Virus record (IMG/VR): IMGVR_UViG_3300042808_000057
Coordinates: 1 to 56,744 of that record
DNA: 56,744 bases
Direction: 5' to 3' (one strand)
DNA from: a virus
Taxonomy: Duplodnaviria; Caudoviricetes
The position numbers and the translations under genes were made by a program. Positions 1-39,086 of the stretch are shown here, one piece after another. A model generated the notes under the pieces. It saw nothing but the letters and a program-made list of their open reading frames with translations, searched no databases and had not been told where the DNA came from. Positions within the stretch are counted from its first letter, which is position 1. Every line of letters begins with the position of its first letter.

Positions 1-127
1 AGATCGCACTCATGCCATGTGGGACCCGGCAAAGGCCGTCCTCATCTATGACGGGGACACCGCAATAACTCCCTCTCGGATAGACTACGCGGGCGGGTAT
101 GTCACGTTGCAGGCGGCTCCTGCCGGT
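1..127. repeat. Terminal direct repeat, copy 1 (circular assembly overlap)
   Basis: Bases 1-127 are identical to 56618-56744. The overlap falls inside one ORF and 127 is a common assembler k-mer size. Confidence 0.95.
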
Positions 128-5600: not shown

Positions 5601-7620
5601 TGGCATGACCGAAGACGGCAGAAAGATAGCCGTCATCGGGCAAGTAGCTCAGAGACAATTTGAGGGCGCGGGCGGTAAATGGGTAGCCGGAACCACGGCG
5701 GCATCTAACCAATTTTGTACCGCTATCGGAATGAGTGGCCATGAGCTAGCGGTCACGTTGGGCCTTGCCAGTGGCGAAACCTCACGCGGTATAATAGCGG
5801 CAGCAGGGATCTTTCAAGGAGTGATCGATGGCAGCGGGCAACAGTTCAAGCTTGCCACCGGCAATGCTGTCACCGATCTAACCACCAAAGTCAAGAATAC
5901 GGCTACTGATTGGATCACTAAATATTCGATAGCCAGCACCAATGAACAAACCAAGCTAATCACGACCGGCGCGGGCATACGAAATAACCTCGATATGGGC
6001 GGCCTGAGTGCAAAGAACAATCTTGTAGCGGGTGGAAATTGGATATATGAGAAGGGTGTGGCGGCTGGAAATTCGATAAGCAACGCCGCCTCTACATTAT
6101 TTTCACGTGTAAGTTCGCTGATTTCCAGTGCGAACAATACGATTTCCAACACGAGGACGCTGTATTTCACAAATTCTGCAAGCAATCCCGCGAACGCCGC
6201 AACCGGAAAAACCGCTGCTCAGATCACAACCGGCAGCTTTTCAGACCCCTGGATGAATGCACCAAAAGGCACCTCACCGAAAGGGTTCGCGGTGGGCACC
6301 ATGGCCACCGGCCCGCAACTATCCCTCATAGGAGAAGATGGCCCGGCCAACCCAGAGTTTGTCATCCCAACCAAGACGAAAAGATGGGATCTACTCTTCG
6401 CTGCAATGCGTTCTTATGGCATTCCCGGTTTCGCAGAAGGCACATCGACCGGTACCGCCTCAAGCGATGCCGTAGATGCTGACAAGATGACCGCCTACTT
6501 CGGCATAGTGGGCCTGGCATCAATGTCTAAGCAGGTCAAAAAGATCATTACCGATCTCAAAGACTTCTTCAGGATTTCATGGGGCATCGTCAAGGCGGAA
6601 GGCTCAACCTACTGGAAGCAGATCAACGCGGTTCTGACAACTGAAATTACCGCGATCAGGGATAACGGCTGGCAGGCCGCGCTCGATATACGCAACGCCT
6701 GGATAGCCACCTCGGCAGGCATCCTGGATGACGCAAAGGCGCAATGGGCCTCCTATTGGCCCGCCATAGAGCCCTCCCTAAGCAGCCTGAAGGATTCGCT
6801 CATAAGTTCCTTTGAGCAGGCAGGAGACGGCGCTAAGAACGCGATAGATAGCATGGTGATGAACTCAGAGTCCTCTCTGCAAGCCTTCGGGCAGGCGTGG
6901 GCGGAAATCTGGTCGCAGCTTGTAACCGACATGGATGCGGCACAAACCCAGATTTCAGAAGGCGTGGCGGCAATTGCCGAAATGCTGAAATCGATATCTG
7001 TAAATGTCAATATTTCTGGCGGTGGCGGATATGGAGGAGGCGGGGGGGGAGGTGGTGGCGGCTTCCCAGGAGATTGGGACTTTGGCGGCGGCGGTGATTG
7101 GTTAGCACCTACCGGGGATTGGTCTGATTGGGGTGGTGGAAATAGCTATAATATCAACACCAATGGGGGGGGATGTACGATAGGCGGTGGCGGATGCACA
7201 CTTACTGCGGGTGGATGCCCTAGCTATTTAGCGGCAGTGCAATCGAGTACTGGCCCGTTGGCTACGGCTGGGTTGGGTTATACAGGTGGCTCTTCATATT
7301 CTGGTGGGGGTGGATATGCTGACATCTCTTATGCGCTGCCTGCGATCTTCCGGGCCAAAGGCGCGTTGGTGGACAAAGGGCCGGAGCTATCCATCATAGG
7401 AGAATCCGGGCCTGAGATGGTCCTTCCTGCCAAGCTCACCCGCATGTTCGTTAGCCTCGCAGATATGGGCGCCAACGCAATCGGCGGCGGGCGGCAAGTA
7501 ATCGAGGACCGCACCGTTCATGAGCATCATCACTATTGGGACGGAAAACGGGTTACCGATATGGTTATGACTGCCAGCATGAAGAGATTACAACTGAGGG
7601 GCGCGGTCCCATCGAGGTAA
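2662..7620 (+). CDS. Tail tape measure protein (TP901-type core)
   Basis: 1652 aa, Ala/Gly-rich; N-terminal VGSAYAKISLD; KGEKAGTALR core; repeated DW helical units; two GPxLSxIGExGP motifs. Confidence 0.95.
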   Translation: MPGEQVGSAYAKISLDDSALDSGLNSAKGKFSAALSSMEGKAVGVGKSIGTALAAGTVAAGVAMAGVATVGVKSYMDIESAAADAASKMDLSAIAQKNGTTVGEAFNGIKQHVIEVSRELGQLNTNAFDPTQIATALSGLAAGGFDVASASAENLSSILSLATATNYDLADSSGMAMAAMNTFGMTVDDLGRIADVYTTACGASAVGMGDLNYAMQQAGPVASVANVSFETLTACIEQLSQSNIKGEKAGTALRGSINTLITPSKTLTDNLAAIGLTMKDVDPRTNDFVDILEKMKSQADKSGLGLSAFTKIFGAEGGLIYKMAEGTDGINTFRDGLLNCEGASGNMAKMMLDTLKGSFDAALGTATDLAIGIGQDLAPTIKGLLDWFSSDGAPAIRELYTAFKEGDWGKIGDTIASAVKAGWSKLKDIGSQLFGWLKAVNWGGVGEYIVNGIKAAWNELMSLGGQLLSALMAVDWMSVGTSILDSISSAIDSVIDYAEGIYDYFANIDWGSVWDSLVSAWDSAIESLSNVGETILGYFDSIDWGTVGFKIGQAIRDAIATLADIGQKVWDYLTSADWSGAGSSITEKIKGGLDKLKEFWNEFKTGLSVVDFTTAGKEIGEKITKGLGQITDYAKSIYDKLKKGWDDWIAADGPAKLGASFGHSLIKGVVDLGKWIYDKIADYWKSNGSSIGSNFAALFHSAIDFGKTALKAAYDFVVGFGNTVLKAGKGTIGASILEIIGNAMNDAWSGAGDSLIEAAKEWRKDAESIWEASDFDTTIAATVDWLGGTPLPADGERRSVIYDVTTTGGPNLTPLRGGTGQPVVSYQGGQLSTQLQNGNWMSATNWANQLGASGQTETAAFLAEIKTWKVAGFNLPPSEIEKLTAAFVAGRDKYEADKAAREAPAKEEAAIGIEGAKEEAEIETDAAEDAATTKTTAAKEAAATETTAAKDVTLTFRQQIWKAVDDANTLWRQGGEAIKYGMTEDGRKIAVIGQVAQRQFEGAGGKWVAGTTAASNQFCTAIGMSGHELAVTLGLASGETSRGIIAAAGIFQGVIDGSGQQFKLATGNAVTDLTTKVKNTATDWITKYSIASTNEQTKLITTGAGIRNNLDMGGLSAKNNLVAGGNWIYEKGVAAGNSISNAASTLFSRVSSLISSANNTISNTRTLYFTNSASNPANAATGKTAAQITTGSFSDPWMNAPKGTSPKGFAVGTMATGPQLSLIGEDGPANPEFVIPTKTKRWDLLFAAMRSYGIPGFAEGTSTGTASSDAVDADKMTAYFGIVGLASMSKQVKKIITDLKDFFRISWGIVKAEGSTYWKQINAVLTTEITAIRDNGWQAALDIRNAWIATSAGILDDAKAQWASYWPAIEPSLSSLKDSLISSFEQAGDGAKNAIDSMVMNSESSLQAFGQAWAEIWSQLVTDMDAAQTQISEGVAAIAEMLKSISVNVNISGGGGYGGGGGGGGGGFPGDWDFGGGGDWLAPTGDWSDWGGGNSYNINTNGGGCTIGGGGCTLTAGGCPSYLAAVQSSTGPLATAGLGYTGGSSYSGGGGYADISYALPAIFRAKGALVDKGPELSIIGESGPEMVLPAKLTRMFVSLADMGANAIGGGRQVIEDRTVHEHHHYWDGKRVTDMVMTASMKRLQLRGAVPSR

Positions 7621-9943: not shown

Positions 9944-10636
9944 ATGGCCTACACGGCGACCAACTGGCTTGAGCTTTCGATGTCTACGGCGCAAAAGCTA
10001 ACTGCCTTGGATAATTTAGAAAGCATGTATTCTCAGGCAGTTTCATATATAGACGCGATTACCCACAGCAGCAGCTACTATACGGATGCCCAGGCAGCCG
10101 CACGCTATTTTTCGGCAGATACGGATGGCTCCGGGACCGGCTTGGTAGCAGCCACATTGGACGGCTCAACCGCCGATGAAATAATAGCAGGCGGCACGCC
10201 ATCAGGATCTATCTGCTGGTGGTCCGGGTCGGATGTTTCCGTTCCTGCCGGGTGGTATGTCTGCAATGGGCTAAACGGCACGCCGGACCTGCGAAATAAA
10301 TTCATTGTCGGTGCGGGAAGCCACTACAGTAAAGGTGATACGGGCGGCGCGAATACCGTCACCACAGAGGCAACGATAACAATAGCGGGGCATAGCCTGA
10401 CTGCGACAGAAATCGCGAAGCACACGCATGGGACGATCACAGATTATTATGCGAGCACTTCGCTAGGATACCATTATGGTGTTGGTGGTTCGTATGTGGA
10501 TTTCTCGGAAGTTCCACGCGATACTGGACCTACGGGATCTGGTAACGCCCATACACACGATGCGACTTATACCGGCACGGGCAGTCAAGCAAAGATACCA
10601 CCATATCTCGCACTTTATTTAATTATGAAGAGCTGA
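9944..10636 (+). CDS. Tail fibre with tail-collar domain, paralog 1
   Basis: GSICWWSG..VPAGWYVCNGLNGTPDLRNKFIVGAG, HxH motifs, C-terminal PPYLALYLIMK. Confidence 0.85.
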   Translation: MAYTATNWLELSMSTAQKLTALDNLESMYSQAVSYIDAITHSSSYYTDAQAAARYFSADTDGSGTGLVAATLDGSTADEIIAGGTPSGSICWWSGSDVSVPAGWYVCNGLNGTPDLRNKFIVGAGSHYSKGDTGGANTVTTEATITIAGHSLTATEIAKHTHGTITDYYASTSLGYHYGVGGSYVDFSEVPRDTGPTGSGNAHTHDATYTGTGSQAKIPPYLALYLIMKS

Positions 10637-10640
10637 TCAC

Positions 10641-11348
10641 ATGACTTACACCAAATTTCATGAGTCTTGGTCAGCTACGGATGAGCTAACCGGCGCGGCT
10701 TTTAATCACATCGAAACGCAATGGACATTGGCAAAAATCGATATCGACGCCCATAACCACGACACCAGATATTACACCAAAACGCTTGCAGACACTACTT
10801 TCTTCAGCACTTCATTCTACACCGGATTCGATGCGGATAAGGTAGACGGTCAGCACCTATCAGATCTGGTAGCGGCGGTAATGCCCATAGGGGCCATCAT
10901 GATATGGTCAGGCACGGACGCGAACGTGCCTACTGGCTGGCATATCGCAGACGGCGGGACATATAGCGGCACGGTGACACCCAATCTACGAGATAGATTT
11001 GTAATAGGCGCGGGCGATACATATGCAGTAAATGCGACATCCGGCCCGGCCAACTGGAACGGCACCATATCACCAACGGGTACGGTCACTGTAGGAGATC
11101 ATACGCTAACCACTGCGGAACTGCCTACACATACTCATGGATTTACTGAATATTATTCACCGCTGGCAGGATATAGCGACAGCGCGTCTCAACCAACAAA
11201 TCGCGTTATTGTGTCCACCCCTCGATCAATCGGGAATCAGGCGGATGGCGACGGATCACATGGTCACACTGGCTCGACCGCGAGCTTTACCGGCATCGAT
11301 CCCAGGTCGACATACTACAGTTTATATTATATTTGCAAGGTGTCATAG
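10641..11348 (+). CDS. Tail fibre with tail-collar domain, paralog 2
   Basis: GAIMIWSG..VPTGWHIADG..TPNLRDRFVIGAG, HTH/HGH motifs, C-terminal YYSLYYICK. Confidence 0.85.
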   Translation: MTYTKFHESWSATDELTGAAFNHIETQWTLAKIDIDAHNHDTRYYTKTLADTTFFSTSFYTGFDADKVDGQHLSDLVAAVMPIGAIMIWSGTDANVPTGWHIADGGTYSGTVTPNLRDRFVIGAGDTYAVNATSGPANWNGTISPTGTVTVGDHTLTTAELPTHTHGFTEYYSPLAGYSDSASQPTNRVIVSTPRSIGNQADGDGSHGHTGSTASFTGIDPRSTYYSLYYICKVS

Positions 11349-12062
11349 ATGGCCTACACAAAAAACGAAGACCCCTGGTCGGCTGAAGATCTAATAACCG
11401 CTGCGATTATGGACAATTTTGAGACAATATATACCGAGTGCTCGACTTACCTATCTACTCATCTGCATGATGATCTCTACCAGACGAAAGCAGAAATGGA
11501 AGCGGCGTATTGGTATGCGGGAAATGATGGCTCAGGCAGCGGTGCAGACGCTGATCTAATCTATAAGGCATCTGGAAATCTACATGCTGCATCTTTTTCA
11601 GGGCTCGGAGTGGATACGGGACTGATCATCCTCTGGTATGGCTCAACTGGCAGCATCCCGGCTGGCTGGCATCTATGCGACGGTACGGGTGGTACGATAG
11701 ACCTGCGGAATCGCTTCCCGGTGGGTGCTGGAAGCACTTATGAGGCGGGAGATACAGGCGGCTCGGCCACATTCGCAGCAGCTGGTAGCATTTCCGTAAG
11801 CGGTCATTCGCTTTCGGTGGCAGAAATGGCGGCACATGTCCACCCGTTCTTGGATTGGACCCCCACCTACCACGCAGCGACAGGAGTATCTCAAAATTGG
11901 ATATGCCAGGGCACCGCGACGACATCAGGCGCCACGGCAAGCGCGGGCAGCGGCGATGCTCACGGTCACAGCACGGCAGAAGGTACACACTTTGATGGAG
12001 ATGCCGTAGCCAGCCTGCCGTTCTGTCTGGCATTATGCTACATACAAAAAATTGCTGCCTAA
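11349..12062 (+). CDS. Tail fibre with tail-collar domain, paralog 3
   Basis: GLIILWYG..IPAGWHLCDGTGGTIDLRNRFPVGAG, C-terminal PFCLALCYIQK. Confidence 0.85.
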   Translation: MAYTKNEDPWSAEDLITAAIMDNFETIYTECSTYLSTHLHDDLYQTKAEMEAAYWYAGNDGSGSGADADLIYKASGNLHAASFSGLGVDTGLIILWYGSTGSIPAGWHLCDGTGGTIDLRNRFPVGAGSTYEAGDTGGSATFAAAGSISVSGHSLSVAEMAAHVHPFLDWTPTYHAATGVSQNWICQGTATTSGATASAGSGDAHGHSTAEGTHFDGDAVASLPFCLALCYIQKIAA

Positions 12063-15594: not shown

Positions 15595-16506
15595 ATGAAT
15601 ATGATGGATGAGTATCATATTAAGCAGGCCCATTCTGCTATAGATTCGCTCGCGGCAGAACTTGCGACCGCCAAAAAGGAGCTCGGAGAGCAAAAGGCAC
15701 TGACTTGCGGCAAGCTTCTGCCCGTGGTAGATTACCCGATGGGGCAGGCAATGGCAAGCATGGGCAGCTACCATACGCCGGAAAAGGCCCGAAAAGAGAT
15801 GGATGCTCTTTATCAGAAATGCCTCGCCCTAAAAGAGGCCAACCAGACGGCGATAAAGAACAATCAGGCGGTTTATGATGGTCTTAGGAAACTTATAGCC
15901 GCTATAGGCATCCCATCGAGCTATAATAAAATAGTCAACCGACGATCATATAAGACCGAATCGGTGCCATACGATTGGACAGATGGATTAAGGCGATTGG
16001 TGGCCGTCCATGACGGCTGGCCGGATGTCCAGCGAACTTATGACCAGAAAATAGCAGAAATCACAAAATGGGAAAAGGAGATCGCGGCCAAAGAAGAGGA
16101 AGAAAAGCGGGCAGCGGAAGCAGAAATCAAGAACGTCGAAAAGATTAAGACTCTCGGAATATTGGCCGATAGATACGGATTGCCATTATCTGCCAATGAT
16201 CATGAGATCTTAGATGCTGTCCTGGCAAAAGACAAGTATCTCGATTTGGGCCATAGCCTGATGCTGAATAGGCTGGATTGGAATGAAGGGCCGTATCATG
16301 CCCGATGCGGCTTGGATCGCTTCGCAGTTATCTCTGATATCGATCATGCCATATATGCAGAAATTCGCGGCTTAATCGATGATTGGCAGGGAGATGGGCG
16401 GGTTTTCCGGGATGCCGAATATGGATATGATGCGCTTTTCGGTCTTGCTGATCAGGCAATTCTGGCAGATTATAAGAAGCTGACTGAATACATGGAGCTA
16501 GTATGA
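15595..16506 (+). CDS. Hypothetical protein with coiled-coil segment
   Basis: 303-aa ORF coupled to the next gene. Confidence 0.75.
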   Translation: MNMMDEYHIKQAHSAIDSLAAELATAKKELGEQKALTCGKLLPVVDYPMGQAMASMGSYHTPEKARKEMDALYQKCLALKEANQTAIKNNQAVYDGLRKLIAAIGIPSSYNKIVNRRSYKTESVPYDWTDGLRRLVAVHDGWPDVQRTYDQKIAEITKWEKEIAAKEEEEKRAAEAEIKNVEKIKTLGILADRYGLPLSANDHEILDAVLAKDKYLDLGHSLMLNRLDWNEGPYHARCGLDRFAVISDIDHAIYAEIRGLIDDWQGDGRVFRDAEYGYDALFGLADQAILADYKKLTEYMELV

Positions 16507-17252
16507 TCGATAGGATACGGGGCACCCGAACCGATGTGCTCCTACGCCTCCTGGAAGGCCCGCAACCTATCGCCGCCTTGGTGGAGAGGCTGAAGAAAAA
16601 TAAAGCGGGCATCCATCATGAGTTAGCTGCGCTTATCGAGGCGGGCGAGGTGGCCCGGTGCAATGCGAAATATGAATTGTCGCAAGTTGGCAGGATAAAG
16701 GCCCAAATGCTCTGCGACATGCTAGCATGTAGCAAGGTGCTGGATGAGCATAAGGACTTCTGGCAGGGTCACGACCTGAGCGGCATTCCAGGGAGGTTAC
16801 AGGAGCTGTTAGGAGAGTTGACAGGATGCAAACTTATACGAGATTGCCCGGATGCACCGATCGATCATCAGGCGGCGTTTGCCGACGCCATCATGCGAGC
16901 TAAAGAGATCTATGGCCTATCTGGTATCATAGAGCCAGGGTACGCCGAAGCAATCTTGGCCGTCTTGGCACAGGGCGCAGAGGTTAGCCTTATCCTCTCG
17001 GAGTGGGTTATTAGCCAGATAGAGCCCAGGATGCTAGAAAAGGCACTATCTTATGAGAACTTTAGCCTTTATCAGCTAGACGGGCTAAAAGTGGCCTTCA
17101 CGGTCACTGATGAGCTGATCAGTCTTGCATTATACGACCATGTAGGTGTATATGATCCCTGGCAAGATCTGATATGCGAGGGAGATCGGGCGGTTACATG
17201 GGGGAAGGAATTGTTTGAGCATTATAAGGATATGGCGAAGGTGGTTAAGTGA
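16503..17252 (+). CDS. Winged-helix regulator of the methanogen DUF1724 / FilR1-like family, without receiver domain
   Basis: N-terminal ArsR-like wHTH; FWQGHDLSGIP motif; C-terminal FTVTDELISLAL..YD...LICE..AVTWGKELFEHY. Confidence 0.8.
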   Translation: MIDRIRGTRTDVLLRLLEGPQPIAALVERLKKNKAGIHHELAALIEAGEVARCNAKYELSQVGRIKAQMLCDMLACSKVLDEHKDFWQGHDLSGIPGRLQELLGELTGCKLIRDCPDAPIDHQAAFADAIMRAKEIYGLSGIIEPGYAEAILAVLAQGAEVSLILSEWVISQIEPRMLEKALSYENFSLYQLDGLKVAFTVTDELISLALYDHVGVYDPWQDLICEGDRAVTWGKELFEHYKDMAKVVK

Positions 17253-18378: not shown

Positions 18379-18438
18379 AGTCAGTAATAGTAAGTAATAG
18401 TATATAAACTTTGCTCTAAATACCTCTATATAGATTCT

Positions 18439-18456: not shown

Positions 18457-19194
18457 ATGTATAAATTTCTAAAACATTTACCTCTATCCGCCCTATGGAT
18501 AGCATTCGTCGAAACGTTTTGGATTGTCATTTTGGCCGATCTTTGCCGCCTGCCTATCCCTTATGCGGCCATTCCGGCAGTTTTCCTTCTAGTGTTCGCG
18601 GTCTATGCCAATGACCATGCAAAAGGGTCAGATGAGGACAGGCTAAATAATCCTGATCGAATTATTCAGTATCCCATTGAAAGGATCGCCAATTGTGCCG
18701 GCGTTCTTGCCATTATCATAGTCGCTGCAACCGATTATACCAAGTTGCCCTTTGTCCTTGTGCCGGTCATTGTGGGTCATTCCTACACGCGAAAAATAGG
18801 CAATTTCAGGCCAAAGGACCTTCCCGGCCTAAAGACTCTGATTGTGGCGGCCCCGACCGCCTACTGTTACGCGGGCCTGGTTGGCGGTGATTGGCGGGCC
18901 TATGCACTGGTATTCCTGGTTACTGTCATAGATACTACCCTCTGCGATATTCGCGACCTGAGGGGGGATGCCGCCAATGGGGTCCGCACCATTCCGGTAA
19001 TTTGGGGCAGATCGCGAACGCTTCTAGCATTGGCGGCCATTGACATAGCGATATTTGCCTTATCGCCTACCATCGCGATCCTGGGTGGCCTATGGCTTGC
19101 CTACTTCGCGAAGGATCGGCCCATTTGGCATTATGATATCCTGGTCGATGGCTGGATTTTATGGGCCTCAATCGCTCTCTACCTCCACCAGTAG
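18457..19194 (+). CDS. UbiA-family membrane prenyltransferase
   Basis: Multiple transmembrane helices; Asp-rich motifs YANDH...EDRLNNPDR and DIRDLRGDAANGVRTIP; RPKDLPGLKT. Confidence 0.85.
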   Translation: MYKFLKHLPLSALWIAFVETFWIVILADLCRLPIPYAAIPAVFLLVFAVYANDHAKGSDEDRLNNPDRIIQYPIERIANCAGVLAIIIVAATDYTKLPFVLVPVIVGHSYTRKIGNFRPKDLPGLKTLIVAAPTAYCYAGLVGGDWRAYALVFLVTVIDTTLCDIRDLRGDAANGVRTIPVIWGRSRTLLALAAIDIAIFALSPTIAILGGLWLAYFAKDRPIWHYDILVDGWILWASIALYLHQ

Positions 19195-22990: not shown

Positions 22991-23239
22991 ATGAGGACCA
23001 AAGGCAAAACCGGAAGCAAAGAGTTTCATCGATTATTAGAAGAATCCCGCCTTCATGAACTGGATTCCCATCCGATGACATCAAGGGAAATGGAACTTGC
23101 ACCTCAACTCGTGATGAGGCTCAAGGTTAAGGGGGTGATAGTGGGTTGTGGCAAGGTTAGCAATTTCCATAGGCAATATATCCTATGGGGGCCGGGACCG
23201 CGCTATAAGCATTACATGAAGGAATGGGGCTGGCTATGA
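22991..23239 (+). CDS. Small wHTH-like protein
   Basis: MTSREM..VMRLKVKGVI..WGPGPRY; resembles the C-terminus of the ORF at 34231-34569 (WKAGPRL). Confidence 0.5.
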   Translation: MRTKGKTGSKEFHRLLEESRLHELDSHPMTSREMELAPQLVMRLKVKGVIVGCGKVSNFHRQYILWGPGPRYKHYMKEWGWL

Positions 23240-23607
23240 TGGCCGCCGCGAGTGCTCCGGGGCTGGATGCGGAGAATAGGCAACTGAGGGCGGAAATAGA
23301 GCAACTAAATGCCGTGATAAGCGATATGCGTATTGAACTTGATTCTGTCTGGAAGGAGTTTAGTTCTACCAATCGCAGAGTTTCCAAGCTGGAGAAGGTC
23401 AGGCCGTCCAGGGGATCGCTTGAACATCTCGATAAGCTGGAATTGGAGATAAAAAAGCGTGGTGTTCCAGGAGTCACATTCAAGGCCGCTGCCGAATTGC
23501 TAGGGATAGATAGGTCAAGCGTTAGTAAGTTGAGTTCTAAAATCAAGGATGATCCGCGCTTCTCCGTTCGCTTCCACGGAAAGAAAAAAGTGATTGAGCT
23601 TCTTTAA
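23236..23607 (+). CDS. Coiled-coil plus wHTH protein, candidate replication initiator 1
   Basis: Heptad N-terminus; HLDKL..GVTFKAAAELLGIDRSSVSKL; similar to the ORF at 49172-49741; followed by an origin-like sequence. Confidence 0.6.
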   Translation: MMAAASAPGLDAENRQLRAEIEQLNAVISDMRIELDSVWKEFSSTNRRVSKLEKVRPSRGSLEHLDKLELEIKKRGVPGVTFKAAAELLGIDRSSVSKLSSKIKDDPRFSVRFHGKKKVIELL

Positions 23608-23615
23608 CAAATCGT

Positions 23616-23862
23616 TTTTCATCCGTTTTGCCTTCAAGTGTGCGTTCACACGCACACCCCATTTTCTCTTATGCGTGAGGTGCATAGGTCGTATATATAT
23701 ATATTATCGTATTAACAATCGTTATTATTATTATATATTATTATGCGTTGTGTTGCACACATACGAACACAAGCAAAAGTAATACGTTTTTATGGTTCGG
23801 ATACACCATTTCTATAGAGATAAAATCCGGTGTTCCTGTGAACGCACACCAAGGGATGAAAA
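23616..23862. other. Candidate replication origin 1
   Basis: 13-bp inverted repeat GTGTGCGTTCACA (23638-50) / TGTGAACGCACAC (23837-49), outer 9-bp inverted repeat TTTTCATCC/GGATGAAAA, very AT-rich core at about 23691-23745. Confidence 0.6.
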
Positions 23863-23955
23863 TGACTTTTCTGGAAGATTGGCAAAATGCGTATTTGTAA
23901 AACATTGCTATAACCTATCGTTAGGTTTATATAGTATAGCGATATAGTAGGGTAC

Positions 23956-24156
23956 ATGGCAAACCACACTGTTCTGGCTGCAATGCCAGACCACGCAATG
24001 TCCGGCTACAAGTACACCGCTGCTATCTCTTATGAGGACGGCAGCATTTACCCATTATGTGGGTGCATCACCAAGAAAGATGCCCTCGCAGTCTGCAAAG
24101 GCTGGATGAAATCCGCCAAGAAGGCAATCTGTGCAGACATCCTTCTGAGGGCTTAA
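23956..24156 (+). CDS. Hypothetical protein
   Basis: Leaderless ORF after GGTTTATATA. Confidence 0.55.
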   Translation: MANHTVLAAMPDHAMSGYKYTAAISYEDGSIYPLCGCITKKDALAVCKGWMKSAKKAICADILLRA

Positions 24157-24300: not shown

Positions 24301-24636
24301 ATGAGAAACGGCGATATCGCCCTTACACCGGGCACAGATGGGCCGTATGCAGGCAAGCCGGCACTTGTAATTGGTCGGAAAGGATATACGACCACGGTAC
24401 ACACCGGGCGTTTTGAGCTGGTTTATGAAACCGCGCAACTTATGCCACATGGCCGGGCCCGGCGCATAAAGACATATAGGACGTTAGGACATAACGAATT
24501 TGCACAATTTAATGTCAATTTCGGAGAGTTCGATTGTACTGTGGACGTAAAAGTAACCGATTCCCTCTATAAAATCGAAGATCTCAGAAAGGCAGCATTC
24601 CTGGAAGCATTGGAGAAATTCAATGATTCTTCCTAG
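24301..24636 (+). CDS. Hypothetical protein with KOW/SH3-like N-terminus
   Basis: GDIALT..GPYAGKPALVI. Confidence 0.5.
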   Translation: MRNGDIALTPGTDGPYAGKPALVIGRKGYTTTVHTGRFELVYETAQLMPHGRARRIKTYRTLGHNEFAQFNVNFGEFDCTVDVKVTDSLYKIEDLRKAAFLEALEKFNDSS

Positions 24637-24760
24637 ATATAAGTGTCTTCGGTGCGGTAAGGAATGGACGCCCCGCATAGAGCATCCGAGAGTTTGCCCC
24701 AAATGCAATTCTCCATATTGGGATAAACCTAGAAAATCAAAGGTGATAAAACCTGATTGA
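24623..24760 (+). CDS. Small zinc-ribbon protein (45 aa; not in ORF track)
   Basis: MILPRYKCLRCGKEWTPR..PRVCPKCNSPYWDKPR. Confidence 0.7.
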   Translation: MILPRYKCLRCGKEWTPRIEHPRVCPKCNSPYWDKPRKSKVIKPD

Positions 24761-25097
24761 CATTCTCACCGTCTATCGCGAAGAAAAAAACAACCAAAAA
24801 CTCGTAGAACTGCCCGAAGCATTCTTTGATCAGGCCACCCAGGCCATCGCCGAAATGCAGGCCGAAGAAGCAGAGGGCGATCTGGAAGAAGAATTGAAGG
24901 CCCAAAACGTCAATTCATCTGGCCGGGCTCTGGTCTTGCTATCTGATCTCAGGCTGAAGAAGGTCTTGAAGGGTGCGATAGCAGACGCCTACCGGGTGAA
25001 ACCTGAGCATGGCCGGGACTTCTTTACAGGAAAAGAAAGAAAGCTTTATGAAAACATTGTCCAAGGAATTAAGGAAATAAAAGGAAAGGTGAATTAA
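24753..25097 (+). CDS. GINS (Gins15/51) A-domain-like protein with CTG start
   Basis: AGGTGA RBS at 24741, in-frame stop at 24747, CTG at 24753; ILTVYREEKNNQKLVELPEAFFD..LRLKKVL..FTGKERKLYENIV resembles the archaeal GINS helical domain. Confidence 0.7.
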   Translation: MIDILTVYREEKNNQKLVELPEAFFDQATQAIAEMQAEEAEGDLEEELKAQNVNSSGRALVLLSDLRLKKVLKGAIADAYRVKPEHGRDFFTGKERKLYENIVQGIKEIKGKVN

Positions 25098-25337: not shown

Positions 25338-27264
25338 TTATACTTTATAAGAACATCGATCCAGATCGCGGGCGGCTTCGGATAGCCAATGTTCTTTTTG
25401 TGGGCAGTCTACGAACTCCACGCATTTGGTATCACATTCGCGCGGGCAGGGCAAAGCGATACGAAGGAATCTCGCTTTTAGGTCTATCGCGATTTCCCGC
25501 CATTTGGCAAGCTCCTTCTGCAATTCCAGCACATTGCTATGATGCATCTGGATAGTGATCTGGTTTTGGGCAAGAAGATCGTCCTTGGCGGCAAGTTCTT
25601 TTTCCATGTCATGCATCATGTCCCGTTGATCGCGACACAGTTCTGCATATTGTTTTATCTCGTCCATTTCCATTGCTCCTTATGAACGGTTTTATATTCT
25701 TTTTTGTAATTCTCATCTAACCATTTTATATAACTCAGATTTTTGATTAGATTGTTTTTTTGCTCATTGTTTTCTTCTCGGAGCCGCTTGATCTCGGCCA
25801 CCAATTCAGGCACAATTTCTTTCAGTTGCATATACCTTCTCGCATATGCCTCTCGTTGCGCATTCCATGATTGGCCGCCTCTGTGCCCGGCGCATAGGGC
25901 TTCAGCTTTCTCTATGAGGTCGTCACTCATCGCAGTGCCTCCGATTTATATTTCTTACGAAATATAATATCCCGAAACATGCTATTGCACCAGCCACGAA
26001 CCCGGTCCAAAATTCATTCATTGCTTATCCTCCTTGAAAATCTCAGGCATCTTGCGAGCCAATTCAATGATAGCATCCTTTTTATGCGTTCCCGCAGAGC
26101 ATACCGCACGACCACAATCTCCTTGACATTTATAATACAAATGATATGCTCTCTCTGTTATGAGGGCAGCTTTCAGGGCGGCAAGCTGTTTATCCTGGGC
26201 ATTGATATGCTCCAACAGTACAGGAAGCATTTCGGCTGCCTCAGATACACATATCGGCTCGCATTCTGGATGATAGCCATTCGCCTTTTCGGCATAATAT
26301 TGTTGCAGATATTCGTTTCGGGTTCTGGCTCTGGTCAATTCGTCTGCATTCATTCTCTTGCCTCTTGTTTTATGGGAATTTTATATTTTATATCCAGTAC
26401 TTCGTAGAATATACTCATCAATAGAAGAAAATTAACTATGTCGATTGTAGATACACCGAAGTACCCAAAAACCAAAAATATGATAGAATAGCCGGTCATT
26501 CGCAAATATGACATAAACGCCGGTTTCTCGCGTGCCTTTGACACGAATTGTTTCAGTCTTTCCTGGAGCATTCTCTTGCCTCCATCTTCGCGGCGATCGA
26601 TTGATATCGGCGCAAGACCTCGATTATTTTCGCATCGTCTGTCGTTATGAACGCAGACATCGCCATCAGCAGAATATGGCCATCACCTGGCCGGATCTCG
26701 CCCAGGACTTCAAGCAGCGCAGGGGCGGCCTCATGTAGATCATGCGACCATGTGCCGGATGCCCTCACATCGAGCGGGTCCTTTACGGCGCGTGCCCGCA
26801 TATCTTTGAGCCGGGCCACGGTTTTGCATAGGGATTCTGTCATTGTCTCAGCTCCTCTAGCAAATCTTGTATTTCTTCCAGCTCTTCTATCAGATGTGGC
26901 CTCGCTACCATGAAGTTAGACTCCAAGCGAGTTATCGTGTTATCGATTCTAGCTTGAATCTTGTCTATTTTCAGGTTATTGACGTTAATCTCTGTCATTG
27001 GTGCATCGCCTCGATTTTGGCTAATGTTTCTTGGTGCGCTTGCATCTCGCGCAGGGCTTTCACCATCGCGGTCTTCTCGCGATCTATGAGGAAGTCTTTG
27101 GCTTCTTGCCATGAGTCGAAATAGTTCATGCCGTTGTCAGATCGTTTCGCATCGCGTCTTGGGCTATTATACGAGTTCGGCTCAAGTACCACGAATTTTG
27201 CAGTTTCCTTGATTACCTCAACTTCTTCTATCCTATCATCATACCGGGTGCGGAATTTCTTCAT
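25338..27264 (-). other. Cluster of short overlapping minus-strand hypothetical genes (25655-25930, 26018-26353, 26350-26571, 26553-26843, 26995-27264 and others)
   Basis: ATGA overlaps and AGGAG/GAGG RBSs; several share an Ead/Ea22-like P.L+AE+..L coiled-coil motif. Confidence 0.6.
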
Positions 27265-27779
27265 GTTTTTGGCTCCTTTATTTCTTCGATTACTACATTG
27301 TAATACTTCTGCCGTATCGGATTCTTCGCGGCTACAATCTCTTTAGGAATACGTAGCCTGTATGTTTGATCAAGCATGGTTTCGAATGAGATGTTTTTAA
27401 TGCGCCTTTTCATGATTCGTTTTGGTGGCACGAACTGATTAATTGTCTCTAGCACGCGTTGAATTTCGCTGTCGTGCATCGCGAAATATTCCCTGCCACG
27501 CGTTGGGTTAGATCCGATATTTTTTAGTAGGTATTGTTCAAGTTCATGTGCGAACGGCGTTTCTATCAAATACAAAATCTCCAAATGCCGTTGGTTTGCG
27601 CTGTAATGCATTGTCAGCCGGTTTAACAGTACGGTAGTGCTTCCTATCTTCATTGTACCATCTGAGAATCGCACAACATAAACGCACCCCCGTTCTTTGT
27701 TGCTTATCGGTTTAACTATTTCCTGCAAATCTGAAAAGTTCGACGCGTGTTTGTTTACGGCAGTTATTGTGGGTGTCAT
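27261..27779 (-). CDS. GIY-YIG (T5orf172/MUG113-like) protein with C-terminal AbrB-like segment
   Basis: GCVYVV..MKIGST..RL..ELEQYL..GREYF, then MLDQTYRLRIPKEIV. Confidence 0.75.
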   Translation of the reverse strand: MTPTITAVNKHASNFSDLQEIVKPISNKERGCVYVVRFSDGTMKIGSTTVLLNRLTMHYSANQRHLEILYLIETPFAHELEQYLLKNIGSNPTRGREYFAMHDSEIQRVLETINQFVPPKRIMKRRIKNISFETMLDQTYRLRIPKEIVAAKNPIRQKYYNVVIEEIKEPKT

Positions 27780-29148: not shown

Positions 29149-30006
29149 ATGGCAGGAAAAATCGACCTCAAAGAACTAACCCAGGCAGTTCAACAGATTG
29201 GCTACCCAGCCAGCAAGGTAACCGATACCATGTGGGAGGTCACACTTCCAGATGGCTCTAAAGCCACTGTAGGGCTCAAGGACGGGCTTTTGGACTGTCC
29301 GAGGAGCAAAGATCTCAAAGACAAGGTATCTCTCCTTATAGCCGACATTAGGGCCGGTATGGGGCAAGTTCCTGCTATAATGGGCGATGAGAAGACCAAG
29401 ATAATGGGCCTAATGCAACAGGTTCCCGGATTCATGCCAGAGATTAGCATAGAGATGATCGCTAACCTGGTCCATTGCCCAGAGGCCACTGCGGAAGATC
29501 TCATGATGCTGGCAGTCACGGCCAAGAACATCGGGGCGAATCCGTTCCTCCCGGGGGAGATATTTCTTATCAAGCCAAAGAGAAGAGACGACGGCTCACA
29601 GCCGCCTGCCTATACAGTGATCGGACAAACGCTAGTGGCCAAGAAGCTGGTCAATGCACCGGGCTTCTCTAAGGCGATAAGGGGCATCATAGTAGAGAGC
29701 AAGGAGGGGGTCGTGACCTTCAAGCAGGGCAACTATTACAACCCGAAGAGAGAAGAATTGACTGGGGCCTGGGCGGAAATCCACTACGACGATGGGAGGG
29801 TAATCCGAAAGGAAATGCCAATCCATGAGCTTTTCGGCACCAATCCGAGCCCCAACCAGAAGAAGATGCCCGGACTCATGGCTGCGAAGAGTGCCTTCAT
29901 GATGGCAGCCAGGGAAGCAGAGCCGGGCCTCATGGGCGGATGTTATGATGCTGACGAAATGGGTTGCCAGTTGAAGATGGACCCGGCAAAGGAGATCTCA
30001 GCATGA
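29149..30006 (+). CDS. Single-strand annealing recombinase (RecT/Red-beta family)
   Basis: NPFLPGEIFLIK, LTGAWAEIH, KKMPGLMAAKSA..AAREA..GCYDADEM. Confidence 0.8.
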   Translation: MAGKIDLKELTQAVQQIGYPASKVTDTMWEVTLPDGSKATVGLKDGLLDCPRSKDLKDKVSLLIADIRAGMGQVPAIMGDEKTKIMGLMQQVPGFMPEISIEMIANLVHCPEATAEDLMMLAVTAKNIGANPFLPGEIFLIKPKRRDDGSQPPAYTVIGQTLVAKKLVNAPGFSKAIRGIIVESKEGVVTFKQGNYYNPKREELTGAWAEIHYDDGRVIRKEMPIHELFGTNPSPNQKKMPGLMAAKSAFMMAAREAEPGLMGGCYDADEMGCQLKMDPAKEISA

Positions 30007-37336: not shown

Positions 37337-37807
37337 ATTGTCCACAAATCCTGTCGTATCTGCTCCCTAGGCACCGATGTCCGCCGGGCCATAGACAACG
37401 ACATAGCCGCCCTGATGCCATATGCGCAGATAGGCCGCAAGTATGCAAAGCAGATCTCCAGGGCCGATTCCCATAGATATGTTAGCGAGCACGCTAAGCA
37501 TGTGGGGAAGCTCCCTGCCCATCGTCAGCCAATCCCCGGCACGGTTGCAGAGGAACGGGAAGTGCGGCACAGGAAGACGGTGGAAGAGAGGCAGGATCAG
37601 ATCTATGATACGGCCTTTGACCTGATTAAACAGGCTGCTGAGAAGGGCGATATTAGGGGCGCGGCAAGCTGTTTGGCTCAGGCTGCGAATGTGACGGCAC
37701 AGATGAAAGGAAGCGAGCCCGATAAGAATAACGCTCCTAAAGAATCCGCCTTCTGGAAGGCATACGGCGAACGGGCCAAAGTGGTATTTGATGGCCAACA
37801 AACCTAG
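37337..37807 (+). CDS. Terminase small subunit candidate, probably ATT start
   Basis: Directly upstream of the large subunit; the frame is open from ATT 37337 and adds a CRIC..H motif ahead of an HTH-like segment. Confidence 0.6.
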   Translation: MVHKSCRICSLGTDVRRAIDNDIAALMPYAQIGRKYAKQISRADSHRYVSEHAKHVGKLPAHRQPIPGTVAEEREVRHRKTVEERQDQIYDTAFDLIKQAAEKGDIRGAASCLAQAANVTAQMKGSEPDKNNAPKESAFWKAYGERAKVVFDGQQT

Positions 37808-39086
37808 TTTTACATGGAAGACGCCGAGCCCGAAACAGGAGCAAATTCTCTATTGGTGGTATCCTGGCAACCCATACGCAAATTGCTCTTATATCGAGCT
37901 GGAAGGAGCAGTAAGAGCAGCCAAAACCATAACAGCGAGCTATTCATTTGTCAATTGGGCCACCTACACATTTGATCAGGAAGATTTAGCTCTATGCTCC
38001 AAGACCATAGGGACATGCCTAAGAAACGTAGTAAGACCTCTTAAACGCATACTTTCAGAAGAGCCAAATTATCAAGTCAAAGAGTACCGGGCCAATGCGG
38101 AAGGCCACAGGCTAGATATTACTGACATAGATCTCGATCGCACAAATTCATTTTTCATCTATGGCGGCAAAGACGAATCCAGCCAGGATCTTTTGCAGGG
38201 AAAGACCCTCGCAGGCGGCCTATTGGACGAAGTTCTCCTTTATCCTATCAGCTTTGTTAATCAGTTCCTTTCAAGGACATCCGTCGAAGGCTCTAAGGTC
38301 TGGTTTACCTTCAACCCGGAAGCACCAACCCATGAAACTTATGTTAATATCCTAGATCCCTATAAGGCGGATGGCAAGGCGTTCTATCTACACCTTACAA
38401 TGGATGACAACCCGGACCTTTCCAAAGAAGCCAGGGAACGCATAGAAGGGCAGTGGCCGATTGGCTCGGTCTGGCATAGGAGAAACGTATTAGGGCAAAG
38501 AGTCGCGGCGGAAGGCGCGGTCTTCCCCTTCTTTACCACGGATCTGAAAGATGGCTATGTAATTAACGAACTGCCCAACGATCTAACTACCTGGCTGATG
38601 GCCGGGGATTATGGCCAACAGCATTATACAGTTTATGCCCTCGTGGGTTATAGCAGCTCTCTGCAACGGTGGATCGTTGTAAAATCCTTTTTCACCAAGG
38701 ATAAGACTAATGTCGTCTATTCTCAGGAATTTAAGAGAGAGATCCTAGATTACAATGGCGGCATACCGCTTATAGAGGCTAATATTGATCCAGGCGGCGG
38801 GGGATTATCGCTCGTAAAACAATTTTCGGAAGATTACGATAACATTTCCGTTTCCTCTGCAATAAAAAAAGACGTTGCCAAAGAGATTCAAGACCTGGCT
38901 TCAGCCCTTTTCACTCACAAACTGAGCTTATACGGCCCCGGAAATAAGCAGGGAATAGAGCAATTGGTTAGCTACATGTGGAATGATACCGCCAAGCTCC
39001 GGGGCAAGGACGAACCTCTCAAGGTAAATGATGATTTCCCGGATGCTCTGCGCTACTTATGGCAAATGTGCTTGAGGTATTCTTGA
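37788..39086 (+). CDS. terL: Terminase large subunit (PBSX family)
   Basis: Walker A-like EGAVRAAKT, Walker B LLDE, TFNPEAPTH, MDDNPDL, GDYG, NDDFPDALRY. Confidence 0.93.
   Translation: MMANKPSFTWKTPSPKQEQILYWWYPGNPYANCSYIELEGAVRAAKTITASYSFVNWATYTFDQEDLALCSKTIGTCLRNVVRPLKRILSEEPNYQVKEYRANAEGHRLDITDIDLDRTNSFFIYGGKDESSQDLLQGKTLAGGLLDEVLLYPISFVNQFLSRTSVEGSKVWFTFNPEAPTHETYVNILDPYKADGKAFYLHLTMDDNPDLSKEARERIEGQWPIGSVWHRRNVLGQRVAAEGAVFPFFTTDLKDGYVINELPNDLTTWLMAGDYGQQHYTVYALVGYSSSLQRWIVVKSFFTKDKTNVVYSQEFKREILDYNGGIPLIEANIDPGGGGLSLVKQFSEDYDNISVSSAIKKDVAKEIQDLASALFTHKLSLYGPGNKQGIEQLVSYMWNDTAKLRGKDEPLKVNDDFPDALRYLWQMCLRYS

What the first reader, a model, noticed from the sequence alone, without database searches (positions are those of the whole stretch)
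23236..23862. Initiator-origin module 1: wHTH gene followed by an inverted-repeat-flanked AT-rich element
Seen: just after the stop of a coiled-coil/wHTH ORF, a perfect 13-bp inverted repeat (GTGTGCGTTCACA/TGTGAACGCACAC) and an outer 9-bp inverted repeat enclose a nearly pure A/T tract of about 55 bp. TCTATAGAGA (23811-20) lies inside the right arm. Known: archaeal origins consist of inverted initiator boxes around an unwinding element next to the initiator gene. This protein is not Orc1/Cdc6 because it has no AAA+ domain. Inferred: an uncharacterised minimal initiator family, with a GINS-like gene about 0.9 kb downstream.
Basis: partly seen in the sequence, partly recalled or inferred. Interest (0 to 1): 0.75.

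Follow-up and report, generated by a model that had tools for sequence, protein, structure and literature searches.

The report
Viral DNA-binding gene with matching sites
In an archaeal tailed virus, a small dimeric DNA-binding protein gene sits right next to its own set of matching binding sites around the most A/T-rich DNA of the genome, a cassette that recurs in related viruses and is either a gene switch or the replication origin.

Summary
The window is a complete 56.7-kb tailed archaeal virus with 127-bp terminal repeats. ORF 23236-23607 encodes a long N-terminal coiled coil plus a C-terminal winged helix. It is followed by the strongest inverted repeat and the most A/T-rich tract of the genome. 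A composite site, TGCGT-N6-GCACAC, occurs at three places in the genome, all inside this 210-bp element.

Ten scored loci of this protein family, plus L014 read by eye, carry a long inverted repeat starting -23 to +31 nt from the stop. The repeats differ between loci and flank 148-210 bp of A/T-rich DNA; 0 of 216 control windows come close. A syntenic relative (L022) has a diverged winged helix and three copies of a different palindrome. The protein and the sites are therefore a co-evolving cassette.

Function is open. In the relatives a TATA-like box, the right arm, a ribosome-binding site and a gene start follow in order, which favours a dedicated regulator with operators (about 0.45). An ATPase-less origin-binding protein with its origin remains a strong rival (about 0.35). 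The family has no curated name, and the "GINS-like" neighbour is only weakly supported.

The parts
23236..23607 (+). Gene for a 123-aa protein: N-terminal 45-residue helix (predicted parallel coiled-coil dimer) plus C-terminal winged helix-turn-helix. The ORF is open from 23224; homologs align from the Met at 23236/23239.
   Evidence: AlphaFold2 mean pLDDT 92.3, helix 8-52, winged helix 59-122. Fold matches are generic winged helices. Dimer prediction ipSAE 0.44 against best control 0.00.
23616..23627 (.). Outer left arm (TTTTCATCCGTT), pairs with 23851-23862.
   Evidence: pair I3: 12 nt, 92% complementary.
23638..23657 (.). Left binding site: 20-bp palindrome GTGTGCGT-TCAC-ACGCACAC. It is the core of the 32-nt left arm 23638-23669.
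23690..23741 (.). A/T tract of about 52 nt with 5 G/C, holding the most A/T-rich 50-bp window of the genome. It contains TATA-like octamers, for example TTATATAT at 23731-23738.
23744..23760 (+). Middle site TGCGT-TGTGTT-GCACAC, with the same half-sites and spacing as the left site. It abuts the right edge of the A/T tract, 5 nt after the TATA-like octamer.
   Evidence: the composite pattern (up to 1 mismatch) occurs at only 3 places in 56.7 kb, expected 0.59 matches. Half-site enrichment.
23811..23818 (.). 8-bp palindrome TCTATAGA at the inner edge of the right arm; function unknown.
   Evidence: pair I6.
23818..23849 (.). Extended right arm. Its core site, 23830-23849, is the reverse complement of the left site with 3 changes in the inner half-site.
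23851..23862 (.). Outer right arm (AAGGGATGAAAA).
   Evidence: pair I3.
23926..23933 (+). Canonical archaeal TATA box TTTATATA, 22 nt before the ATG at 23956. This is the promoter of the leaderless downstream operon, and it lies outside the repeat-flanked element.
   Evidence: The same TATA-N22-ATG geometry occurs on the minus strand at 18408 -> 18378.
23956..24156 (+). First gene of the downstream operon (66 aa, no family match).
24753..25097 (+). GINS-like gene (context only). The full-length frame has no ATG/GTG/TTG before 24855. Homologs begin M-IDIL, which places the start at the CTG codon 24753.

Best explanation
The ORF and the element form a self-contained cis/trans cassette. The 123-aa protein dimerises through a parallel N-terminal coiled coil. 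This presents two winged helices to palindromic sites of the form TGCGT-N6-GCACAC. Three such sites (23638-57, 23744-60, 23830-49) lie directly downstream of its own stop codon, arranged as an inverted pair plus a middle site around an A/T-rich tract.

Most likely function (inferred, about 0.45): a dedicated transcriptional switch at the boundary between two early, same-strand operons. Protein made from the last gene of the upstream operon would occupy a site just downstream of a TATA-like element. In the window this is TTATATAT at 23731 followed by the site at 23744. In the relatives it is TATATAAA followed 32-37 nt later by the right arm. The second, inverted site at the gene's end would act as an auxiliary operator, giving cooperative bridging or looping and possibly a roadblock to read-through. 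The result would be control of transcription entering the next operon.

Shown: the sites, their uniqueness in the genome, the gene-site linkage and its co-variation across loci, the fold, and a predicted dimer. Inferred: actual binding, looping, the direction of regulation, and promoter activity inside the element.
For: (1) Linkage. The window and 9 scored relatives (10 of 10) have an inverted repeat of score 15-26 starting -23 to +31 nt from the stop. It flanks 148-159 bp in 9 loci and 210 bp in one. By comparison, 0 of 216 control 420-bp windows exceed 13. L014 shows the same repeat by eye.

(2) Co-variation. Arm sequences differ between loci while the two arms within a locus match at 84-100%. 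The syntenic relative L022 shares the first 16 residues (15 identical) of the protein, and a near-identical DNA block at the gene start. Its winged helix is diverged (36% identity overall), and it has three copies of a different 11-bp palindrome. These are the only three in 30.5 kb, and all lie within 232 bp after the gene.

(3) Each arm contains its own palindrome, as expected for a dimer. The dimer prediction gives an in-register parallel coiled coil over residues 7-53. Score 0.44, best of 3 controls 0.00. The mark was reached by 20 of 30 proteins solved as pairs of one chain and by 1 of 23 solved as single chains. The runs agree in at least 79% of contacts, and partner pLDDT is at least 73. 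Coiled coils may pass by likeness to solved structures.

(4) Promoter layout in relatives. All 9 loci have a TATA-like octamer in the interior, 32-37 nt before the right arm in 8 of 9. A GGAGG-type ribosome-binding site and an ORF start follow 15-35 nt after the arm in 6 of 9. That leaves no room for another promoter.

(5) The nearest structures include ArsR/SmtB/MarR repressors (Foldseek E 5e-3 to 4e-2; VIA Z 9.2-7.5).

(6) The sites occur only here: window and the 70.7-kb relative G001 (2 sites). This fits a dedicated local regulator.
Against: In the window and in L022 the canonical promoter of the downstream leaderless operon lies 50-75 bp outside the element (TTTATATA at 23926). Occlusion of that promoter therefore cannot be the mechanism here. 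The proposed internal promoter is only a TATA-like octamer inside very A/T-rich DNA, where such octamers are cheap.

TATATAAA is the reverse complement of TTTATATA, so its direction cannot be read from the sequence.

The arms are longer and more perfect (22-26 nt at 100% in 4 loci) than ordinary operators need. They are also polar, and always inverted. A 52-nt tract of about 90% A+T exceeds what a promoter needs.

No transcription start data exist. No integrase or other lysogeny gene was recognised by Pfam or PHROG, so an immunity repressor is not expected. Binding was not measured.
Confidence: 0.45

Rival explanations
1. Origin of replication with a minimal, ATPase-less origin-binding protein. 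Dimers would bind the inverted composite sites and the middle site, the A/T tract between them would serve as the unwinding element, and the protein would recruit host Orc1/Cdc6-MCM, perhaps together with the viral GINS-like protein. The logic would resemble EBNA1-DS, papillomavirus E2 or lambda O (these comparisons are recalled, not tested).
For: The genome is complete (direct terminal repeats, 100% by CheckV). No polymerase, primase, MCM, Orc or Rep was recognised among the ORFs scanned, so a host-dependent origin must exist somewhere.

The element combines the strongest inverted repeat with the most A/T-rich DNA of the genome. In every relative the interior also holds the most, or nearly the most, A/T-rich 50 bp of the locus.

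Three full sites occur only here, one of them abutting the A/T tract. The arms are polar and inverted in all 10 scored loci, and perfect over 22-26 nt in 4.

The cassette lies among DNA-metabolism genes. PCNA is 2.3 kb upstream in L004. The GINS-like gene follows in the window and in L022. RecT is 5.5 kb downstream.

The specificity part (winged helix plus sites) is exchanged as a unit between syntenic viruses, as with lambdoid O/ori (recalled). The promoter of the next operon lies outside the element in the window and in L022.
Against: No replication data exist. Cumulative GC skew rises almost monotonically and shows no turn at 23.7 kb. Transcription runs the same way on both sides of the element. 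The protein is only a coiled coil plus a generic winged helix, with no domain known to load a helicase. In the relatives the interior contains conserved promoter-like blocks in a fixed register with the right arm and the next gene. The family was not found on plasmids or in cellular genomes, where a replicon function could have been seen in isolation.
Confidence: 0.35
2. The inverted repeat flanks a small non-coding RNA or micro-ORF gene, or acts at the RNA level as a long-range stem in a read-through transcript. On this reading the winged-helix gene is merely adjacent.
For: The interior contains TATA-like boxes and a T5 run at 23788-92. Conserved interior blocks exist in the relatives. The region folds far better than shuffles.
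Against: There is no Rfam match at E up to 1. Mismatches between the arms are mostly not G-U compatible: by my reading of the arm sequences, the counts are window 0 of 5, L018 0 of 3, L005 0 of 1, L007 2 of 3. Each arm carries its own internal palindrome, which an RNA stem does not need. Arm sequence co-varies with the adjacent DNA-binding domain.
Confidence: 0.07
3. A mobile or rearranging DNA element: either a miniature inverted-repeat transposable element or an invertible promoter segment.
For: The element has terminal inverted repeats of 22-45 nt around a short non-coding segment that holds a promoter-like box.
Against: There is one copy per genome. It is always at the same place relative to the same gene family, with locus-specific arms. 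I saw no flanking direct duplication in the sequence. No transposase or recombinase domain was found in the window. The interior has the same orientation in all 9 relatives with a TATA-like box.
Confidence: 0.03

Closest known systems
Archaeal chromosomal origins: Orc1/Cdc6 gene next to inverted ORB boxes around an A/T-rich unwinding element (recalled from the literature, not from a call)
   Same: A DNA-binding gene lies directly beside inverted, polar sites that bracket the most A/T-rich DNA. The DNA-binding part is a winged helix.
   Different: There is no AAA+ ATPase. The element lies downstream, not upstream, of the gene. Site sequences are virus-specific and vary between relatives rather than following a host ORB consensus. 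Initiation was not mapped.
ATPase-less origin-binding proteins that use host machinery: EBNA1 with the oriP dyad-symmetry element, papillomavirus E2, lambda O with its iterons (recalled)
   Same: A small dimeric site-specific binder with several palindromic sites next to A/T-rich DNA. Specificity co-evolves with the sites, and the virus has no helicase of its own.
   Different: There is no sequence or specific fold relationship; only a generic winged helix was found. Lambda ori lies inside the O gene. No partner recruitment is shown here.
Winged-helix repressors of the ArsR/SmtB and MarR type, and archaeal repressors that bind at or just after the TATA box (the latter recalled)
   Same: The best structural matches are of this kind. 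The sites are palindromic. A site lies 5 nt (window) or 32-37 nt (relatives) downstream of a TATA-like octamer.
   Different: Dimerisation is predicted through a 45-residue N-terminal parallel coiled coil, not through helices packed around the winged helix. No Pfam family is matched above threshold; among 38 relatives, 1 matches HTH_23. The sites are downstream of the regulator gene, long, polar and inverted.
Two-operator looping systems such as the gal repressosome or lac O1-O3 (recalled)
   Same: Two equivalent sites bracket a promoter-like region. Centre-to-centre spacing is 175-180 bp in 9 of 10 loci, computed (using the 32-nt arms for the window).
   Different: Looping is not shown. A tetramer was not tested. 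In the window the main promoter lies outside the would-be loop.

Membership tests
Orc1/Cdc6-ORB archaeal origin | Initiator carries an AAA+ ATPase domain | tested here: not met
   Pfam and PHROG give no ATPase match. The 123-aa model is one long helix plus a winged helix.
Orc1/Cdc6-ORB archaeal origin | Inverted recognition boxes flank an A/T-rich unwinding element beside the initiator gene | tested here: met
   for the window; for 9 relatives. This shows the form only, not function.
Orc1/Cdc6-ORB archaeal origin | Replication initiates at the element | not testable with these tools
   Only assembled contigs of the source runs were available, so no depth profile could be made. GC skew is uninformative.
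ArsR/SmtB/MarR winged-helix repressors | Winged helix-turn-helix fold | tested here: met
   Foldseek best hits are CadC, NolR, PefR and SmtB (E 4.8e-3 to 1e-2). VIA Z 9.2 for Rv1404 and 8.5 for AntR. Other winged helices (Z-alpha, TFIIIC, ORC) score the same.
ArsR/SmtB/MarR winged-helix repressors | Sequence membership: Pfam HTH_5, MarR or similar above the gathering score | tested here: not met
   For the window protein only sub-threshold hits, for example HTH_37 at 17.2 bits against a cut-off of 27. A PDB profile search hits MarR at E 8e-4. Of 38 relatives, 1 passes HTH_23.
ArsR/SmtB/MarR winged-helix repressors | Operator overlaps the regulated promoter | tested here: inconclusive
   The layout fits in relatives, and in the window for a putative internal TATA. 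The window's canonical promoter at 23926 is outside the element. There is no transcription start data.
Iteron-plasmid Rep (RepA/RepE type) or lambda O-type initiators | Rep_3, Phage_rep_O or a tandem winged-helix architecture | tested here: not met
   No such Pfam or PHROG match. The model has a single winged helix.
Invertible promoter (inverton) | Adjacent site-specific recombinase, and both orientations present in the population | tested here: not met
   No recombinase domain in the window. Same orientation in all 9 relatives. Laid contigs show no strand-change joints, but contigs drop rare variants.
Miniature inverted-repeat transposable element | Multiple copies and target-site duplication | tested here: not met
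   Single copy in the window and in G001. No flanking direct repeat seen.
GINS (Sld5/Psf helical-bundle domain), for the neighbour gene 24753-25097 | Match to PF05916 or to a GINS structure | tested here: inconclusive
   PF05916 at E 0.032, 14.9 bits against a cut-off of 22.3, but covering 8-101 of 102 profile positions. 6 of 13 homologs match at E up to 0.1. A PDB profile search hits 'GINS' 7yil at E 0.12. The model has pLDDT 68.9, and the top two Foldseek rows are archaeal GINS at E 1.6 and 2.7. One homolog is named GINS by its source.

The most novel reading that the evidence does not exclude
The coiled-coil winged-helix proteins are a new family of ATPase-less origin-binding initiators of archaeal tailed viruses. 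Each is physically fused to its own origin: inverted composite sites around an unwinding tract that start at, or even inside, the stop codon. The DNA-binding domain and origin are swapped as one specificity cassette between related viruses. The protein recruits the host Orc/MCM machinery much as EBNA1 or E2 does in eukaryotic hosts, possibly with the viral GINS-like protein.
Probability: 0.33. Interest if true: 0.8.

Novelty: new variant of a known kind. Interest (0 to 1): 0.55.

Why it matters
Very little is known about how tailed viruses of methanogen-type archaea replicate or time their genes. This virus encodes no recognisable replication enzyme. The cassette is the best-defined cis/trans pair in the genome, and it gives a concrete, small target for experiment: a 123-aa protein and a 250-bp DNA.

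If it is an origin, it would be a first handle on host-dependent replication of these viruses and a possible basis for shuttle vectors. If it is a switch, the family still offers a set of natural, mutually different protein-operator pairs for archaeal genetics. At least six clearly different arm sequences were seen.

Tried and rejected
Searches for close relatives of the window protein:
- None in IMG/VR, JGI metagenomes or GTDB genomes.
- The three close homologs (57-67% identity) sit on short ENA contigs that no open tool could fetch. The window's own site sequence could therefore not be compared with a near relative.
- The exact 20-mer of the left site was not found in IMG/VR.
- The family was not found in GTDB genomes with the distant alignment, in GenBank phages, in plasmids, or with P0008 in IMG/VR.

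RNA and expression:
- Rfam gave no match locally at E up to 1 or window-wide at gathering scores.
- Sequencing runs: no RNA holder listed. The two DNA holders are probably the source assemblies and are kept as contigs only, so there is no depth profile, no starts and no joints.

Other negative or uninformative results:
- GC skew shows no turn at the element.
- MCM (PF00493) has no match in the window or in four relatives' records, which are 27-67% complete.
- Looser copies of the 13-mer elsewhere in the window are at chance level.
- The unit 7-mers are not enriched in the interiors of the relatives, except in L013.
- The pattern control (the pattern read backwards) gives 4 matches in 30.5 kb. 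For L022 the argument therefore rests on clustering, not on count.

Literature: three full-text searches (listings and abstract starts only) returned nothing on this protein family or on origins of Methanosarcinales tailed viruses. No paper was read in full.

Full report
WHAT THE WINDOW IS

The 56,744-base window is a whole virus record with direct terminal repeats, rated 100% complete. I found the repeat to be 127 bp.

It is a tailed virus. Recognised genes include:
- tape measure protein, 2662-7620
- large terminase, 37788-39086
- portal, 39298-40704
- major capsid protein, 41681-42547
- head-tail adaptor
- major tail protein
- three tail-fibre paralogs

Several observations point to an archaeal, Methanosarcinales-type host:
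- The best capsid match in GenBank is Caudoviricetes sp. vir515, host Methanosarcinales, at 57% identity.
- The window has a FilR1-type regulator gene at 16503-17252.
- Operon-first genes follow a canonical archaeal TATA box at leaderless distance (TTTATATA-N22-ATG at 23926 -> 23956 and, on the minus strand, 18408 -> 18378).
- Relatives of the cassette carry PCNA and a fragment of methyl-coenzyme M reductase beta.

Among the 80 ORFs scanned with Pfam and 73 with PHROGs, no polymerase, primase, helicase, Orc/Cdc6, Rep, integrase or partition gene was recognised. A six-frame search for MCM was negative. RecT (29149-30006), a dCMP deaminase and a DNA methyltransferase are present.

THE OBSERVATION

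- The 13-mer GTGTGCGTTCACA occurs exactly twice, inverted, at 23638 and 23837. Looser copies elsewhere are at chance level (7 found, 9.09 expected).
- The repeat extends to 32-nt arms (84% complementary, 148 nt apart), and an outer 12-nt pair (92%) lies at 23616/23851.
- It ranks first of the 12 inverted repeats found genome-wide.
- As single-stranded DNA the region folds with z = -5.05 against shuffles.
- The tract 23690-23741 contains the only 50-bp window of the genome with 90% A+T.

I add two points. First, the left arm is itself a 20-bp palindrome. Second, the composite pattern TGCGT-N6-GCACAC (up to 1 mismatch) occurs at three places in the whole genome: 23638-57, 23744-60 and 23830-46. 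That is four matches counting both strands of the palindrome, against 0.59 expected; 1 of 100 shuffles reaches four. The middle site touches the right edge of the A/T tract. Half-sites are also enriched: 4 of the 22 genome matches to GTGTGCGT (up to 1 mismatch) lie in 281 bp, where 0.11 is expected by length.

THE PROTEIN

The ORF has no family match above threshold in Pfam or PHROGs.

The word-indexed search found only three relatives besides itself, at 57-67% identity, on short ENA contigs.

A profile search of 1.84 billion representatives found 76 proteins at E up to 1e-3. I aligned the window protein with 33 relatives: the three close ones and 30 of the 76. The 30 were picked by hand among those of 115-188 aa within the first 43 rows. 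I left out the long coiled-coil proteins of 516-3206 aa, which match the helix only, together with several short rows among the first 43 and all lower rows. The alignment is A2.

They share one architecture: a heptad-rich N-terminal helix, a conserved R-x4-E motif, a linker, and a C-terminal domain with a conserved D-x-R-F wing. Of 38 members scanned, 1 reaches a Pfam cut-off (HTH_23).

The AlphaFold2 model from A2 is confident (mean pLDDT 92.3). It shows a helix at 8-52, followed by helix-strand-helix-helix-hairpin at 59-122, which is a winged helix.

Structure searches give only generic winged helices:
- ArsR/SmtB/MarR repressors (Foldseek E 4.8e-3 and weaker; none at E up to 1e-3).
- Z-alpha, TFIIIC, MarR-like and TFE at VIA Z 9.5-9.0, and ORC/Cdc6 winged helices at Z 8.6 and 7.6.

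The fold therefore does not separate a regulator from an initiator.

A two-copy prediction gives an in-register parallel coiled coil over residues 7-53. The score is 0.44 against a best of 0.00 in 3 controls. The mark was reached by 20 of 30 proteins solved as pairs of one chain and by 1 of 23 solved as single chains. The runs agree in at least 79% of contacts, and pLDDT is at least 73. Coiled coils may pass by likeness to solved structures.

Using distant family members I fetched 4 distinct IMG/VR loci and 10 JGI metagenome loci. Among the JGI loci, three duplicate IMG/VR loci, L014 is close to L013, and L019 ends 8 nt after the stop and cannot be judged.

In a uniform scan from 40 nt before the stop to 380 nt after it, the window and 9 relatives all have a best inverted repeat of score 15-26. 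The relatives scanned were L004, L005, L007, L009, L011, L012, L013, L016 and L018.
- The repeat starts -23 to +31 nt from the stop.
- The gap between arms is 148-159 nt in nine loci and 210 nt in L009.
- In 216 non-overlapping control windows from the same sequences the mean best score is 7.7 and the maximum is 13.
- L014 shows the same repeat by eye.

In five loci the left arm overlaps the last codons and the stop codon. The arms are perfect over 22-26 nt in L004, L009, L011 and L012.

Arm sequences differ between loci. The A/T-rich TTAAACG and TTCAACG types, TTCATCG, the G-rich CCCCAAATTTGGGG type and the window's GTGTGCGT type were all seen. Within a locus the two arms match.

Read from the sequences, each arm consists of a palindrome plus a third unit on the inner side. 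The arms are therefore polar, and always inverted.

In the 70.7-kb relative G001 the palindrome occurs only at the two arms.

In every locus the interior contains the most A/T-rich, or nearly the most A/T-rich, 50 bp of the locus.

A CLOSER, SYNTENIC RELATIVE

Through the GINS-like gene I reached L022. It has the same upstream gene, a family member, a 340-bp A/T-rich gap and then the GINS-like gene.
- The family member's first 16 residues (15 identical) match the window protein's, and the DNA is near-identical over about 65 nt at the gene start.
- The rest of the protein, including the winged helix, is diverged (36% identity overall).
- Instead of the window's sites it has three copies of TCTAA-N-TTAGA at 3537, 3585 and 3758. 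These are the only three in the 30.5-kb record, all within 232 bp after the gene. The last two bracket about 160 bp of A/T-rich DNA.
- The backward-pattern control gives 4 matches in that record, so the argument rests on the clustering, not the count.

The DNA-binding domain and the sites have thus been exchanged together between otherwise syntenic viruses. This is the strongest evidence that the protein binds these sites.

WHAT IT DOES: TWO LIVE READINGS

For a transcriptional switch:
- The eight loci L004, L005, L007, L011, L012, L013, L016 and L018 align across the module. The alignment shows two conserved interior blocks, although the arms differ.
- One block is close to AAAAAGTATGCTAAAAA-ATATT. 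The other is a TATA-like octamer (TATATAAA, TATTTAAA or TATAAAAA).
- That octamer lies 32-37 nt before the right arm in all eight of these loci, and 11 nt before it in L009. In six of the nine relatives a GGAGG-type ribosome-binding site and an ORF start follow 15-35 nt after the arm.
- This leaves no room for another promoter. With the usual archaeal start about 25 nt after the TATA box (established knowledge, not tested here), the right arm would sit at roughly +10 to +35 of the transcript.
- In the window the middle site begins 5 nt after TTATATAT (23731-38).

A dedicated regulator, made from the last gene of one early operon and acting on the promoter region of the next, is an ordinary arrangement. 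The second, inverted arm would serve as an auxiliary site for bridging.

Against the switch, and for an origin:
- In the window and in L022 the canonical promoter of the next, leaderless operon lies outside the element.
- TATA-like octamers are cheap in such A/T-rich DNA, and TATATAAA reads TTTATATA on the other strand.
- The arms are longer, more perfect and more consistently polar-inverted than operators need.
- A 52-nt tract of about 90% A+T exceeds what a promoter needs.
- The genome is complete, has no recognised initiator, and must have an origin.
- The cassette sits among DNA-metabolism genes: PCNA in L004, the GINS-like gene in the window and L022, and RecT nearby.

Origin-binding proteins without an ATPase that rely on host ORC/MCM are known from eukaryotic viruses (EBNA1, E2; recalled).

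Against an origin, there is no skew signal and no replication data. The protein has nothing beyond a coiled coil and a generic winged helix, and the relatives show a promoter-like register.

I put the switch at about 0.45 and the origin at about 0.35. The two are not exclusive, because promoter-containing origins exist in phages (recalled).

RNA-level function is unlikely. By my reading of the arm sequences, arm mismatches are mostly not G-U compatible. There is also no Rfam match.

A mobile element or an invertible segment is also unlikely. The element is single-copy, fixed to one gene family, has no recombinase nearby and has one orientation in all nine relatives.

THE GINS-LIKE NEIGHBOUR

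The frame 24753-25097 has 12 homologs of 111-115 aa at 58-82% identity that cover it fully. GINS evidence is weak but consistent:
- Pfam Sld5 at E 0.032 over the whole domain, with 6 of 13 members matching at E up to 0.1.
- One PDB 'GINS' chain at E 0.12.
- A poor model (pLDDT 68.9) whose top two Foldseek rows are archaeal GINS at non-significant E values of 1.6 and 2.7.
- One source-given name.

I treat it as plausible, not established.

COMPARISON, NOVELTY AND SCORE

The protein family has no curated name, and I found no member in GenBank phages, plasmids or GTDB genomes. The kind of thing, a dimeric winged-helix protein with adjacent palindromic sites, is well known. New here are the coiled-coil architecture and the tight gene-site fusion with long polar inverted arms around A/T-rich DNA. 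Its recurrence, with many specificities, in archaeal tailed viruses is also new. I call it a new variant of a known kind, interest 0.55. It would be considerably higher if the origin reading is proven.

Noticed in passing
window 24623-25097: The GINS-like frame has no ATG/GTG/TTG before 24855. However, 12 homologs of 111-115 aa begin M-IDIL (one with a GTG-type start), aligned to the window's CTG at 24753. This suggests a CTG start or a sequence variant. The frame is +1 relative to the zinc-ribbon ORF 24623-24760, which overlaps it by 8 nt.
   Followed up: partly
window 23224-23290 and L022 3063-3130: A stretch of about 65 nt at the start of the winged-helix gene is near-identical between the window and L022, while the DNA on both sides is diverged (alignment A8). 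It looks like a mosaic recombination boundary in front of the specificity cassette.
   Followed up: partly
L004, L005, L007, L011, L012, L013, L016, L018 interiors (alignment A5 columns about 123-145): A block of about 23 nt close to AAAAAGTATGCTAAAAA-ATATT is conserved in the interior of eight loci even though their arms differ. It is likely bound by a conserved (host?) factor or is a second promoter. Unexplained.
   Followed up: no
window 27261-27779 (-), 49948-50454 (+), 52427-52750 (+): Three ORFs carry T5orf172/MUG113 (GIY-YIG-related) domains scattered through the genome. They may be homing-endonuclease-like genes.
   Followed up: no
window 9944-12062: Three tandem paralogous tail-fibre or collar genes of about 230 aa each, all matching phrog_5795.
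   Followed up: no
window 16503-17252 and 18457-19194: The virus carries a FilR1-type regulator (PF08350, E 4.9e-25) and a sub-threshold UbiA-like prenyltransferase ORF (PF01040, 32.3 bits against a cut-off of 34.2). Both are host-like genes unusual for a virus.
   Followed up: no
L017 3862-4176: A 104-aa ORF in a relative's contig matches the N-terminal domain of methyl-coenzyme M reductase beta (PF02783, E 1.7e-5, 25.0 bits against a cut-off of 22.2). It is a fragment of a methanogenesis gene in a virus-like context.
   Followed up: no
window 22991-23239; L022 2860-3090; L004 3247-3528: A second small ORF lies just upstream of the coiled-coil gene in several loci. In L004 it matches the winged-helix family HTH_45 (E 2.7e-11). 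The window and L022 ORFs are unassigned. This may be a two-gene unit.
   Followed up: no
window 1-127 and 56618-56744: An exact 127-bp direct terminal repeat, in line with the record's 'direct terminal repeats' class.
   Followed up: yes
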